Of a DNA stretch of 40,291 nt, positions 21,764 through 26,173 are shown one piece after another. The notes below the pieces were generated by a model that did no database searches, was not told where the DNA came from, and was given only the letters and a program-made list of their open reading frames with translations. The position numbers were made by a program, and so were the translations under genes. The stretch lies in sequence record NC_047777.1, one strand, 5' to 3'. Source of the DNA: Escherichia phage ZG49. Positions within the stretch are counted from its first letter, which is position 1, and each line of letters opens with the position of its first letter.

Positions 21764-21781
21764 TAAACTATCACTATAGGA
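21764..21781 (+). promoter_or_regulatory. Phage RNAP promoter TAAACTATCACTATAGGA (phi10-like)
   Basis: Exact consensus directly upstream of the capsid gene. Confidence 0.75.
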
Positions 21782-21885
21782 GACCAAGAGACAGACTCAA
21801 GGTTCCCCTATTACTTCAGTCCATACGGATTGGGCGTACAGCAAGTAATAAACTTTATCTTTCAATTGAATAGGAGAATTATCAT

Positions 21886-22938
21886 ATGGCAAACGTTCCG
21901 GGTCAGAAAGTAGGTACAGACCAAGGTAAAGGCAAATCTGGTTCCGACGCTCTGGCGTTGTTCCTGAAGGTCTTTGCTGGCGAAGTCCTGACCGCATTCA
22001 CTCGCCGCTCTGTAACTGCTGACAAGCATATTGTCCGTACAATTCAGAACGGTAAGTCTGCTCAGTTCCCGGTCATGGGTCGCACCTCTGGTGTGTATCT
22101 AGCTCCGGGTGAGCGACTGTCCGATAAGCGTAAAGGTATCAAACATACCGAGAAAACAATTACCATTGATGGTCTGCTGACTGCCGATGTGATGATTTTC
22201 GACATTGAAGACGCGATGAACCACTATGACGTGGCTGGTGAGTATTCCAACCAGTTGGGTGAAGCTCTGGCTATCGCTGCTGATGGTGCGGTTCTGGCTG
22301 AAATTGCTATCCTGTGTAACCTCCCAGCTGCATCCAACGAGAACATCGCTGGTCTGGGTACTGCGTCCGTACTGGAAGTTGGTAAGAAAGCTGACCTCAA
22401 CACCCCGGCTAAACTGGGCGAAGCAATCATCGGTCAACTGACCATCGCTCGTGCGAAACTGACCTCCAACTACGTTCCTGCTGGCGACCGTTATTTCTAT
22501 ACAACGCCGGATAACTACTCTGCAATCCTCGCGGCTCTGATGCCGAACGCTGCTAACTATGCTGCGCTGATTGACCCAGAGACTGGTAACATCCGTAACG
22601 TAATGGGCTTCGTGGTTGTTGAAGTCCCACACTTGACTCAGGGTGGTGCTGGTGAAACTCGTGGTGATGATGGTATCACTATTGCGACTGGTCAGAAGCA
22701 CGCCTTCCCAGCTACTACTACTACTGGTAATGCTAAAGTTGCTCTGGACAACGTTGTGGGCCTGTTCTCTCACCGTTCTGCTGTGGGTACTGTGAAGCTT
22801 CGTGACTTGGCGCTGGAACGTGACCGTGACGTCGATGCTCAGGGCGACCTGATTGTTGGTAAGTACGCTATGGGTCACGGTGGTCTGCGTCCTGAAGCGG
22901 CGGGTGCGCTGGTTTTCACAGCAGCGTCAGCGGTCTAA
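21886..22938 (+). CDS. Major capsid protein (gp10A-like, 350 aa)
   Basis: Extensive similarity to T7 gp10A (ALFLKVF.GEVLTAF, GKSAQFPV.GRT, IKHTEK.ITIDGLLTADV, DIEDAMNHYDV, AILAALMPNAANYAALIDPE, HRSAVGTVKLRDLALER, KYAMGHGGLRPEAAGA). Confidence 0.97.
   Translation: MANVPGQKVGTDQGKGKSGSDALALFLKVFAGEVLTAFTRRSVTADKHIVRTIQNGKSAQFPVMGRTSGVYLAPGERLSDKRKGIKHTEKTITIDGLLTADVMIFDIEDAMNHYDVAGEYSNQLGEALAIAADGAVLAEIAILCNLPAASNENIAGLGTASVLEVGKKADLNTPAKLGEAIIGQLTIARAKLTSNYVPAGDRYFYTTPDNYSAILAALMPNAANYAALIDPETGNIRNVMGFVVVEVPHLTQGGAGETRGDDGITIATGQKHAFPATTTTGNAKVALDNVVGLFSHRSAVGTVKLRDLALERDRDVDAQGDLIVGKYAMGHGGLRPEAAGALVFTAASAV
22911..22917 (+). promoter_or_regulatory. Putative -1 ribosomal frameshift heptamer G GTT TTC near the 3' end of the capsid gene (gp10B-type)
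   Basis: Same heptamer occurs at the equivalent position of T7 gene 10 (from memory); -1 frame open from 22917 to 23195. Confidence 0.45.
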
Positions 22939-22948
22939 CGACCTTTAA

Positions 22949-23086
22949 GGCCCTCTCTACAGAGGGTCCTACCTTAGAGACGTACAGTTCTACGGTGGGG
23001 ACCAGCCTTAAGGTTGACTTACCTGAGCTTTCAGATGTGACCGATTGGTCGCTGCTTGAGGTGACTACGCCTGAGTGGTTTTTTTT
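22949..23086 (+). terminator. Candidate late terminator region (Tphi-like): 8-bp hairpin 22949-22968 and a T8 tract 23079-23086
   Basis: Hairpin GGCCCTCT/AGAGGGTC just after gp10 stop; T8 run further downstream; no clean hairpin directly abutting the T-run. Confidence 0.3.
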
Positions 23087-23203
23087 GCTTAAAGTGAGGA
23101 TGATTATGTTTTACTTACTTACAGCCTTGGGACTATTTGTTAGTTTCTGGGCGATTATATTATTAACCGGACCATGCAGTCCTTACGACAGATAGGAGGG
23201 AGT

Positions 23204-23770
23204 ATGGCTCAATACATTCCACTGAATGCTAACGATGACTTAGACGCTATCAACGATATGTTAGCTGCTATCGGTGAACCAGCAGTCCTACAGCTTGACG
23301 AGGGGAATGCTGACGTCTCGAACGCCCAACGTATCCTGCATCGTGTCAATCGTCAGGTCCAAGCTAAAGGCTGGAACTTTAACATCAACGAAGCTGCTGT
23401 CCTGACACCTGATGTCCAAGACAATAGGATTCGATTCTTGCCGTCATACCTTCGTGTAATGACCGCTGGGGCCACCAGCTACTACAGCAACATGGGTGGA
23501 TACCTGTACGACCTGTCCACTCAGTCGACCACTTTCACCGACCCTATCACGGTAGAGCTTGTGGAGATGAAGCCATTCTCAGAGATGCCTGTGGTCTTCA
23601 GGGACTACATCGTCACTAAAGCTAGCCGTGAGTTCAACGCTAAGTTCTTCGGTAGCCCAGAGTCTGAACTGTACCTTCGTGAGCAGGAAGCAGAACTCTA
23701 TCAGCAGGTCATGGAATACGAGATGGATACTGGTCGCTACAACATGATGTCCGACATTGGGAGAGACTAA
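23204..23770 (+). CDS. Tail tubular protein A (gp11-like)
   Basis: Similarity to T7 gp11 (IGEP, RILN/HR.NRQ.Q..GW.FNI, ..YEMD.G.YNM); ATG 23204 after AGGAGGG. Confidence 0.9.
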   Translation: MAQYIPLNANDDLDAINDMLAAIGEPAVLQLDEGNADVSNAQRILHRVNRQVQAKGWNFNINEAAVLTPDVQDNRIRFLPSYLRVMTAGATSYYSNMGGYLYDLSTQSTTFTDPITVELVEMKPFSEMPVVFRDYIVTKASREFNAKFFGSPESELYLREQEAELYQQVMEYEMDTGRYNMMSDIGRD

Positions 23771-26154: not shown

Positions 26155-26173
26155 TAACTATCACTATAGGGAC
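26155..26173 (+). promoter_or_regulatory. Phage RNAP promoter TTAACTATCACTATAGGGA (phi13-like)
   Basis: Consensus match; intergenic. Confidence 0.7.

What the first reader, a model, noticed from the sequence alone, without database searches (positions are those of the whole stretch)
22911..23195. Conserved gene-10 slippery site with a long open -1 frame
The heptamer G GTT TTC lies 7 codons before the capsid stop, matching the T7 gene 10 frameshift site as I recall it. After a -1 shift the frame stays open for 93 codons to 23195, through a hairpin and a T8 tract, ending in a hydrophobic stretch. That stretch may instead be a separate 29-aa ORF (ATG 23106 after GAGGA). The 93-codon stop-free run has roughly 1% chance expectation.
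Basis: partly seen in the sequence, partly recalled or inferred. Interest (0 to 1): 0.55.

Follow-up and report, generated by a model that had tools for sequence, protein, structure and literature searches.

The report
Capsid frameshift site, extension truncated by deletion
This is the well-known T7-type slippery site that lets some ribosomes make a longer minor capsid protein, but in this K1F-like phage a ~159-base deletion has cut the extension in half, removed the transcription terminator and accidentally joined the frame to a separate tiny membrane-protein gene.

Summary
G GTT TTC lies at 22911-22917 in the register of capsid gene 10 (21886-22938). The -1 frame then runs 92 sense codons to TAG 23193-23195.

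The window is a Kayfunavirus (K1F-like T7 relative). The heptamer is the T7/K1F/Kvp1 gene-10 -1 frameshift site. In 59 unique relatives it goes with a long -1 extension that shows a coding signature and has no conserved start codon.

The 93-codon frame is not a native 10B extension. It is a chimera of three parts:
- 53 codons are the first half of a 94-aa Ig-like extension (PHROG 7473).
- About 159 nt are deleted. The deletion took the other half of the domain, its TAA stop and nearly all of the T-phi terminator hairpin.
- The frame then crosses the leftover T8 run into an independent 29-codon membrane-protein gene (23106-23195). That gene has its own Shine-Dalgarno sequence and is conserved in 63 phage records.

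The fusion depends on the T-run being exactly 8. The deletion junction occurs in no other sequence searched.

Verdict: a known mechanism and a new member, carrying a probably non-functional deletion scar. Interest is low.

The parts
21766..21783 (+). Phage RNA-polymerase promoter upstream of gene 10 (phi10 equivalent)
   Evidence: Perfect match to AACTATCACTATAGGAGA. This is one of 10 such sites in the window, against 0.07 expected by chance. The next ones downstream are at 26156 and 33512, and none lies between genes 10 and 11.
21886..22938 (+). Gene 10A, major capsid protein (350 aa), zero frame
   Evidence: ORF list. It is 93-99% identical to annotated Kayfunavirus major capsid genes.
22911..22917 (+). 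Slippery heptamer G GTT TTC (X_XXY_YYZ register), the -1 shift site
   Evidence: It occupies the same codons as the T7 site. It is present in 57 of 59 unique relatives that have a recognisable T7-like or PHROG-7473 extension. Val uses other codons in 11 of 14 ALVF relatives without an extension.
22917..23075 (+). Remnant of the 10B extension: -1 frame codons 1-53 (HSSVSG...EVTTPE), made of a linker plus beta-strands 1-3 of a 7-strand Ig-like domain
22943..22979 (+). Interrupted 14-bp RNA hairpin, starting 5 nt (outer stem) or 13 nt (inner stem, from 22951) after the 10A stop
   Evidence: Fold energy -16.8 kcal/mol, z -2.4. It is kept in 95.5% of cells in 12 close relatives, but these vary too little to be decisive. 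The 96-aa subgroup has a hairpin at the same offset with compensatory changes.
23070..23078 (+). Deletion junction (CCTGA|GTGG). About 159 nt present in all relatives are missing here.
   Evidence: Alignment A1. The spacer from the gene-10 stop to gene 11 is 265 nt here, against 422-423 nt in IME177, R1 and HC12. No phage record spans the junction in one piece. There is no exact match in IMG/VR or JGI metagenomes. The imperfect direct repeat GCCTGA / GC(T/C)TGA is exact in L017.
23075..23089 (+). Remnant of the 3' end of terminator T-phi (GTGG + T8 + GCT). The stem-loop is gone.
   Evidence: Relatives have a 17-bp hairpin, -26 kcal/mol, z -4.3. The window segment has nothing comparable, z -1.7. 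The T-phi motif occurs nowhere in the window. The terminator scan gives only chance-level hits.
23096..23195 (+). Independent small gene: SD GAGGA (23096-23100), ATG 23106, 29 codons, TAG 23193-23195. It encodes a single-pass hydrophobic peptide, MFYLLTALGLFVSFWAIILLTGPCSPYDR.
   Evidence: In relatives it lies downstream of T-phi and out of frame with 10B. tblastn finds 63 phage records, all with full-length 29 codons. Diverged copies are 52-58% identical in DNA yet keep the length, the hydrophobic core and the SPYD[RK] end.
22896..23195 (+). The whole open -1 frame (a chimera of the parts above)
23204..23770 (+). Gene 11, tail tubular protein A. The true start is ATG 23204, by homology.
   Evidence: Annotated gene 11 in relatives is 567 nt.

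Best explanation
The window is a Kayfunavirus (K1F-like) genome.

Proposed mechanism:
- Ribosomes translating capsid gene 10 reach G GUU UUC at 22911-22917.
- A minority slip back one base, with tRNA-Val moving GUU to GGU and tRNA-Phe moving UUC to UUU. This is the mechanism of T7 gene 10, where about 10% of ribosomes shift.
- In relatives the shifted ribosomes add a short linker and an ~80-residue Ig-like beta-sandwich. They stop at a TAA placed directly before the T-phi terminator. The product is the minor capsid protein 10B.

What differs in this genome:
- A deletion of about 159 nt between short direct repeats removed beta-strands 4-7 of that domain, the TAA stop and almost the whole T-phi hairpin.
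- The residual T-run is 8 long, so the -1 frame now runs on. It crosses the ribosome-binding site and coding sequence of an unrelated, independently translated 29-codon membrane-peptide gene and ends at that gene's TAG.
- Any frameshift product here would be a 436-aa protein: 10A residues 1-344 plus 92 aa. It would carry half an Ig domain and a hydrophobic tail.
- This is most likely a tolerated, non-functional scar rather than an evolved extension.

Status of the steps:
- Shown: the sequence anatomy, homology, the coding signature of the extension in relatives, the deletion, the loss of the hairpin, and the independence of the small gene.
- Inferred: that slipping actually occurs here, its rate, and the fate of the chimeric product.
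For: Identity of the window: Kayfunavirus, nearest genome IME177 at 95%.

The heptamer and published frameshifting:
- The heptamer sits at the codons homologous to the T7 site.
- The review gives G_GU for T7 gene 10.
- K1F gene 10b is described as a -1 frameshift product, and a GFP fusion to it gives fluorescent phage.
- In Kvp1 the 10B protein was shown by mass spectrometry to arise by -1 frameshifting at TTTTCA.
- T7 shifts in about 10% of translations.

Evidence from relatives:
- With an intact heptamer the -1 frame runs 45-96 codons, and in all 24 Kayfunavirus loci it ends just before T-phi. The +1 frame is short in nearly all.
- Codon differences in the extension are 43% and 58% synonymous in the -1 frame, against 5-16% in the other two frames.
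- The first possible start codon in the -1 frame wanders between codons 8 and 33.
- The synonymous positions of the heptamer track the presence of an extension.
- Unrelated extension modules (T7-like, PHROG 7473, Big_2) all sit in the -1 frame.

The deletion and terminator loss.

The small gene is separate.
Against: - There is no protein or reporter data for this phage.
- In T7, a CCCC in the terminator more than 200 nt downstream contributes to frameshifting (review). The equivalent CCCC of T-phi is deleted here, so shifting may be weaker than in relatives.
- The deletion and the T8 length are unique to this sequence. They cannot be checked against reads, so an assembly or homopolymer error is not excluded.
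- The linker part of the extension (codons 9-20) shows only a weak coding signature.
Confidence: 0.8

Rival explanations
1. The long -1 frame is a genuine, selected 10B extension of this phage. On this view the capsid protein is meant to carry the hydrophobic tail, and the fusion to the small ORF is functional.
For: - The frame is open for 92 codons, with P about 0.001-0.006 by chance.
- The in-frame join needs a T-run of exactly 8, and that is what is present.
Against: - No other genome has this arrangement.
- In every relative the extension stops before T-phi, and the small gene lies in a different frame or is absent.
- The retained extension is 3 of 7 strands of a beta-sandwich, so it is unlikely to fold.
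- One in three T-run lengths would give this fusion by accident.
Confidence: 0.05
2. The deletion, the T8 length, or both are sequencing or assembly errors. The real phage would then have the normal 94-aa extension, its stop codon and T-phi.
For: - The junction is unique among about 50,000 phage records, IMG/VR and JGI metagenomes.
- It abuts a strong GC hairpin and a homopolymer, both of which are error-prone.
- Relatives have T-runs of 5-9.
Against: - The missing segment extends about 120 nt upstream of the hairpin into ordinary coding sequence.
- It is bounded by a short direct repeat, GCCTGA / GC(T/C)TGA. That is typical of a real microhomology deletion.
- The rest of the window is a normal, full-length genome.
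Confidence: 0.12
3. There is no frameshifting. The -1 ORF after gene 10 would be a free-standing small gene, as databases annotate it ('hypothetical protein', 63-87 aa), and the heptamer would be incidental.
For: All 22 database proteins of this family are called as stand-alone ORFs. HC12 has an ATG overlapping the capsid stop.
Against: - The start codon is not conserved. In some genomes it lies inside the domain, at codon 33.
- The -1 frame always opens upstream of the heptamer.
- Synonymous sites of the heptamer are fixed only where an extension exists.
- There is experimental 10B evidence in T7, K1F and Kvp1.
Confidence: 0.03

Closest known systems
Bacteriophage T7 gene 10A/10B programmed -1 ribosomal frameshift
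   Same: - The same heptamer, G GUU UUC, at the homologous codons (...G-A-[LV]-V-F) a few codons before the 10A stop.
- The same gene order: phi10, gene 10, T-phi, gene 11.
- In relatives the -1 product ends just before T-phi, as in T7.
   Different: - The T7 extension is 53 aa and not Ig-like. Here the ancestral extension is a 94-aa Ig-like domain (PHROG 7473), now truncated to 53 aa.
- T-phi, including the CCCC implicated in T7 frameshifting, is deleted.
- The frame runs into another gene.
Phage K1F gene 10b (type species of the same genus)
   Same: Same genus, the same heptamer and the same T-phi sequence. Gene 10b is described as a -1 product, and a GFP fusion to it gives fluorescent phage.
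   Different: K1F carries the 48-codon T7-like extension (...TPQQKAARTRAANRA...), not the Ig-like module. K1F has no small ORF between T-phi and gene 11.
Phage T3 gene 10B (Ig-like extension by -1 frameshift) and other phage Ig-like domains added by frameshifting
   Same: A capsid C-terminal Ig-like domain delivered by -1 frameshifting (review; T3 record).
   Different: - T3 slips at C CCA AAG, not on the U-run.
- Its domain is Pfam Big_2. The module here has no detectable sequence relation to Big_2 (hhalign probability 0.2%) and no Pfam hit.
Kluyvera phage Kvp1 10B
   Same: A -1 slip at TTTTCA, the same U-run, proven by mass spectrometry.
   Different: It is a different genus. Its extension type was not compared here.

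Membership tests
T7-type gene 10 -1 programmed ribosomal frameshift (10A/10B) | Slippery heptamer G_GUU_UUC in zero-frame register near the 3' end of the major capsid gene | tested here: met
   22911-22917, CTG GTT TTC. It is homologous to the T7 site.
T7-type gene 10 -1 programmed ribosomal frameshift (10A/10B) | The -1 frame is open from upstream of the shift site to well past the 10A stop | tested here: met
   Open 22896-23195. The same holds in relatives.
T7-type gene 10 -1 programmed ribosomal frameshift (10A/10B) | The extension evolves as protein-coding sequence in the -1 frame and has no start codon of its own | tested here: met
   Synonymous fraction is 43% and 58% in the -1 frame, against 5-16% in the other frames. 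Start positions are not conserved. This was tested on relatives; the window shares the first 53 codons.
T7-type gene 10 -1 programmed ribosomal frameshift (10A/10B) | The 10B frame terminates before the T-phi terminator that follows gene 10 | tested here: not met
   Met in all 24 Kayfunavirus relatives. In the window the stop codon and the hairpin are deleted.
T7-type gene 10 -1 programmed ribosomal frameshift (10A/10B) | A distal 3' stimulator, which in T7 is a CCCC in the terminator | tested here: not met
   The review states the T7 requirement. The T-phi 5' arm AAACCCC is absent from the window. Whether this lineage needs it is unknown.
T7-type gene 10 -1 programmed ribosomal frameshift (10A/10B) | A larger minor capsid protein carrying the trans-frame peptide is actually produced | not testable with these tools
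   Only literature on relatives is available: T7, K1F, Kvp1.
Phage Ig-like capsid decoration domains added by frameshift | The extension folds as an Ig-like beta-sandwich | tested here: met
Pfam Big_2 (the T3-type 10B domain) | Sequence match to the Big_2 profile | tested here: not met
   No Pfam hit. hhalign against the Big_2-type extensions gives probability 0.2%.

The most novel reading that the evidence does not exclude
The deletion is real and the phage is viable. It would then be a natural mutant that lacks both T-phi and a foldable 10B domain. It would also make a capsid protein ending in a transmembrane helix whenever ribosomes slip. If that chimera is made and matters, for example by tethering capsid subunits to the membrane or changing assembly or lysis, it would be a new capsid variant. 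At minimum the genome is a ready-made test of whether T7-type frameshifting depends on the terminator.
Probability: 0.07. Interest if true: 0.55.

Novelty: new member of a known kind. Interest (0 to 1): 0.25.

Why it matters
The mechanism is textbook, so the value is mostly in annotation and in what the deletion offers.

- **Annotation of this genome.** It should be annotated as gene 10A plus a truncated 10B. The terminator between genes 10 and 11 is deleted. The 29-codon gene is separate. There is no 93-codon extension.
- **Annotation of relatives.** The Ig-like PHROG-7473 module is recorded in databases only as free-standing 'hypothetical proteins' of 63-87 aa. The evidence here says it is the frameshift-delivered end of the minor capsid protein in many Kayfunavirus and related phages.
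- **What the deletion suggests.** If real, it suggests the Ig domain and T-phi are dispensable, at least for propagation of this isolate.
- **A comparison it allows.** Set against IME177, it pairs a genome with the terminator against one without it. That lets one ask whether the long-range terminator effect on T7 frameshifting holds in this genus.

Tried and rejected
- **Sequence relatives of the extension.** I looked for Pfam domains (no significant hits), solved structures by sequence (none) and relatedness to the Big_2-type extensions (none). Only a fold-level Ig-like assignment was possible.
- **The same deletion elsewhere.** I searched phage records, IMG/VR and JGI metagenomes and found none.
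- **A substitute terminator.** I looked for one, or a second T-phi copy, in the window and found none.
- **A common RNA structure after the heptamer.** RNAalifold found none across all extension subtypes. Only subgroup-specific hairpins exist.
- **Rfam.** No match.
- **Primary papers.** The Condron et al. 1991 and Sipley et al. 1991 papers are not held. Statements on T7 stimulators rest on the Atkins 2016 review.
- **Homology search with the window's own 92-aa chimera.** It gave only 5 partial hits, and none for the hydrophobic part.
- **Transcriptional slippage at the heptamer.** Rejected, because a U4 run is too short. This rests on established knowledge, not a test.

Full report
**1. The observation**

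The window has GGTTTTC once on the + strand, at 22911-22917. It lies in the frame of a 350-aa ORF (21886-22938) as CTG GTT TTC, which is the X_XXY_YYZ register. TTC is followed by ACA GCA GCG TCA GCG GTC TAA.

Reading from the last base of TTC in the -1 frame gives 92 sense codons and then TAG at 23193-23195. The -1 frame as a whole is open from 22896.

- a hairpin at 22943-22979, -16.8 kcal/mol, z -2.4;
- a T8 run at 23079-23086;
- ATG 23106 five bases after GAGGA.

With the off-frame stop frequency of this genome (7.2%), 92 open codons have P of about 0.001. Shuffling the segment gives 0.006.

**2. What the genome is**

The region is 93-99% identical to many Kayfunavirus (K1F-like, Autographiviridae, Studiervirinae) genomes. 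The closest overall is IME177, at 95% over 94% of the first 25 kb.

The ORF is the major capsid gene 10. Gene 11 (tail tubular protein A) starts at 23204 and gene 12 at 23770. A perfect phage promoter, AACTATCACTATAGGAGA, lies at 21766-21783. No other promoter occurs before 26156.

**3. The heptamer is the T7-type shift site, and relatives support its use**

T7 has GTG GTT TTC AAA at the homologous codons, a 53-codon -1 extension, and then T-phi. The published evidence on this type of site is as follows:
- The Atkins et al. 2016 review lists G_GU as the X_XX part of the T7 gene 10 site.
- T7 10B is made in about 10% of translations.
- In K1F, gene 10b is described as a -1 product. A GFP fusion to it gives fluorescent phage.
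- In Kvp1, mass spectrometry showed 10B arising by -1 shifting at TTTTCA.

I read the -1 frame from the conserved ...GALVF codon in 85 related loci. Where the heptamer is intact, the frame almost always runs 45-96 codons. In all 24 Kayfunavirus loci it ends at a TAA or TGA just before T-phi. The +1 frame is short in nearly all loci.

At least three unrelated extension modules occupy this -1 frame:
- a T7/K1F-like 45-48-aa tail, matching PHROGs annotated as head protein;
- a 91-96-aa module matching PHROG 7473, of unknown function;
- Big_2 domains, as in T3.

Four further results support translation by frameshifting rather than independent initiation:
- Within the PHROG-7473 module, codon differences between relatives are 43% (n=12) and 58% (n=28) synonymous in the -1 frame. 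In the other two frames they are 5-16%.
- The first ATG, GTG or TTG in the -1 frame wanders between extension codons 8 and 33. The frame always opens 6-22 codons upstream of the heptamer.
- Among unique relatives encoding the same ALVF residues, 57 of 59 with a T7-like or PHROG-7473 extension have GGTTTTC, and the other two have CGTTTTC. By contrast, 11 of 14 without an extension use GTC, GTG or GTA for Val.
- Databases call the PHROG-7473 ORF a stand-alone 'hypothetical protein' of 63, 64, 68, 75 or 87 aa, depending on where a start codon happens to lie. That looks like an annotation artefact.

One caveat applies. The counts are not phylogenetically independent.

**4. The 93-codon frame is a deletion chimera**

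I aligned the window with IME177, R1, HC12 and phiYIO1-1. The window follows its closest relatives (IME177, R1) for extension codons 1-52 and has Glu (as in L006 and L012) instead of Asp at codon 53 (...EVTTPE). It then lacks about 159 nt that all the relatives possess.

The spacer from the gene 10 stop to gene 11 is 265 nt here. It is 422-423 nt in IME177, R1 and HC12.

The missing piece encodes the rest of the extension, its TAA stop, and the 5' arm, loop and most of the 3' arm of T-phi:
- In IME177 the missing protein sequence is GVSYSRRTNSLYFKATSGAEGLVIVGYDGSPVRSFNVSFTN.
- The terminator sequence in relatives is AAACCCCTTGGGTGCCTTCGGGTGCTTGAGGGG followed by T5-9.

The borders are an imperfect direct repeat, GCCTGA / GCTTGA. 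The repeat is exact in L017. That fits a microhomology-mediated deletion.

In relatives the terminator folds into a 17-bp hairpin of -26 kcal/mol (z -4.3). The window segment has nothing comparable (z -1.7). No T-phi copy exists elsewhere in the window. The generic terminator scan finds only chance-level hits.

No phage record spans the junction in one piece. The junction 25-mer is absent from IMG/VR and JGI metagenomes.

**5. The hydrophobic end is a separate gene**

Downstream of T-phi, most Kayfunavirus genomes go straight to the gene 11 ribosome-binding site. A subset carries a ~100-nt insert with its own Shine-Dalgarno sequence and a 29-codon ORF.

tblastn finds this ORF in 63 phage records. 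Thirteen are identical and 50 are 41-59% identical. All are full-length at exactly 29 codons, and most are unannotated.

Diverged copies in Kayfunavirus and Przondovirus are only 52-58% identical in DNA. They still keep an N-terminal MF, an ~18-residue hydrophobic core and a C-terminal SPYD[RK]. This is therefore a real small membrane-peptide gene.

In relatives it is not in frame with 10B. The frame offset is 2 with a T7 run and 1 with a T6 run. In the window it is in frame only because the leftover run is T8. T7 or T6 would give a stop within a few codons. One run length in three would produce this fusion by accident.

**6. What the extension is**

An AlphaFold2 model was built from an 87-aa database ORF of this family with 22 aligned sequences. 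It has mean pLDDT 82 and seven beta-strands.

There is no sequence link to Big_2, Pfam or the PDB.

The window keeps PHROG profile positions 2-40 of 82. That corresponds to the linker and strands 1-3. The remnant should not fold as a domain.

**7. Most likely mechanism here**

- Shown: the anatomy, homology, coding signature, the deletion, the terminator loss and the separate small gene.
- Inferred: a fraction of ribosomes still slip at 22911-22917. They would make a 436-aa product, composed of 10A residues 1-344, 53 aa of Ig remnant, 10 junction residues (WFFLLKVRMI) and the 29-aa hydrophobic peptide.

The review reports that a CCCC in the T7 terminator contributes to T7 frameshifting. The equivalent CCCC is deleted here. 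The rate could therefore be lower than in relatives.

Loss of 10B appears to be tolerated in nature. L017 and L041 keep the heptamer, but their -1 frames break after 15 and 19 codons. T7 is generally held to be viable with 10A alone, as in the T7Select helper system. The helper plasmid carries three mutations in the natural shift sequence. This point rests on established knowledge, not on a test here.

Without T-phi, transcripts from phi10 should read on into the small gene and genes 11-12. This too is inference.

**8. Comparison and verdict**

The site is a member of the T7-type gene 10 -1 frameshift family by heptamer, register, position and open -1 frame. Its relatives show the coding signature.

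It fails two features of the canonical arrangement, both because of the deletion: a stop before T-phi, and the presence of the terminator element.

Novelty is low: a new member of a known kind with an idiosyncratic scar. The main residual doubt is whether the deletion and the T8 run are real or are sequencing artefacts. Only reads or PCR can settle that.

Noticed in passing
window 23096-23195; L006, L014, L088-L090: A conserved, mostly unannotated 29-codon gene for a single-pass hydrophobic peptide (M-F-hydrophobic core-...-SPYD[RK]). It sits between the T-phi U-run and gene 11 in 63 Kayfunavirus and Przondovirus records. It has its own AGGAGG, and in the Klebsiella phages a duplicated copy of the gene 11 ribosome-binding site flanks it, as if it were a small inserted cassette. 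Function unknown.
   Followed up: partly
window 22943-22979; L054-type loci, alignment A7 columns 44-66: Each PHROG-7473 subtype has a hairpin starting about 11-13 nt after the 10A stop codon, roughly 30 nt after the heptamer. In the 96-aa subgroup a 9-bp stem is 98% paired, with two pairs changed on both sides (0 of 500 shuffles reach this). In the window's own subgroup there is too little variation to judge. Its role is unknown; frameshifting, termination or mRNA stability are possibilities.
   Followed up: partly
window 22936-22948 and the equivalent in L003, L005, L020 and L054: The block TAA-N2-3-ACC(T/C)TTA(A/G) just after the 10A stop is conserved across otherwise unrelated extension modules (T7-like and three PHROG-7473 subtypes). 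It could be a shared linker, a recombination boundary between modules, or an RNA signal.
   Followed up: no
L023 2676-3161: At the same spot between T-phi and gene 11, this relative carries a ~140-160-aa Cys-rich ORF instead. It has an endonuclease VII/HNH-like motif (DHSHSTGEIRGVLCQRCNCAIG). The site seems to be a hot spot for small insertions.
   Followed up: no
L049 1254-2678: A more distant relative has GGTTTTT at the shift position and a 475-codon open -1 frame. A Big_2 domain is followed by about 390 residues with no Pfam match. This may be a very large capsid-displayed extension.
   Followed up: partly
L017 and L041 (gene 10 3' ends): The heptamer is intact but the -1 frame breaks after 15 or 19 codons. 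In L017 the T7-like extension sequence continues out of frame. These look like other natural, or sequencing-derived, 10B knock-outs.
   Followed up: no
L047, L053, L055, L059, L068: These have Big_2-type -1 extensions of 90-180 aa without the GGTTTTC heptamer (capsid ends ...ALVIAKA, ...ALVVTKA and so on). They must use another shift site, perhaps lysine codons as in T3 (C CCA AAG).
   Followed up: no
window 3079-39803: Ten + strand matches to the phage promoter core AACTATCACTATAGG (0.07 expected by chance). They map the phage RNA-polymerase promoters of this genome.
   Followed up: no
window 23174-23204: The mechanical ORF for gene 11 starts at ATG 23174, inside the small gene. By homology the true start is ATG 23204, after GGAGGGAGT.
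   Followed up: yes
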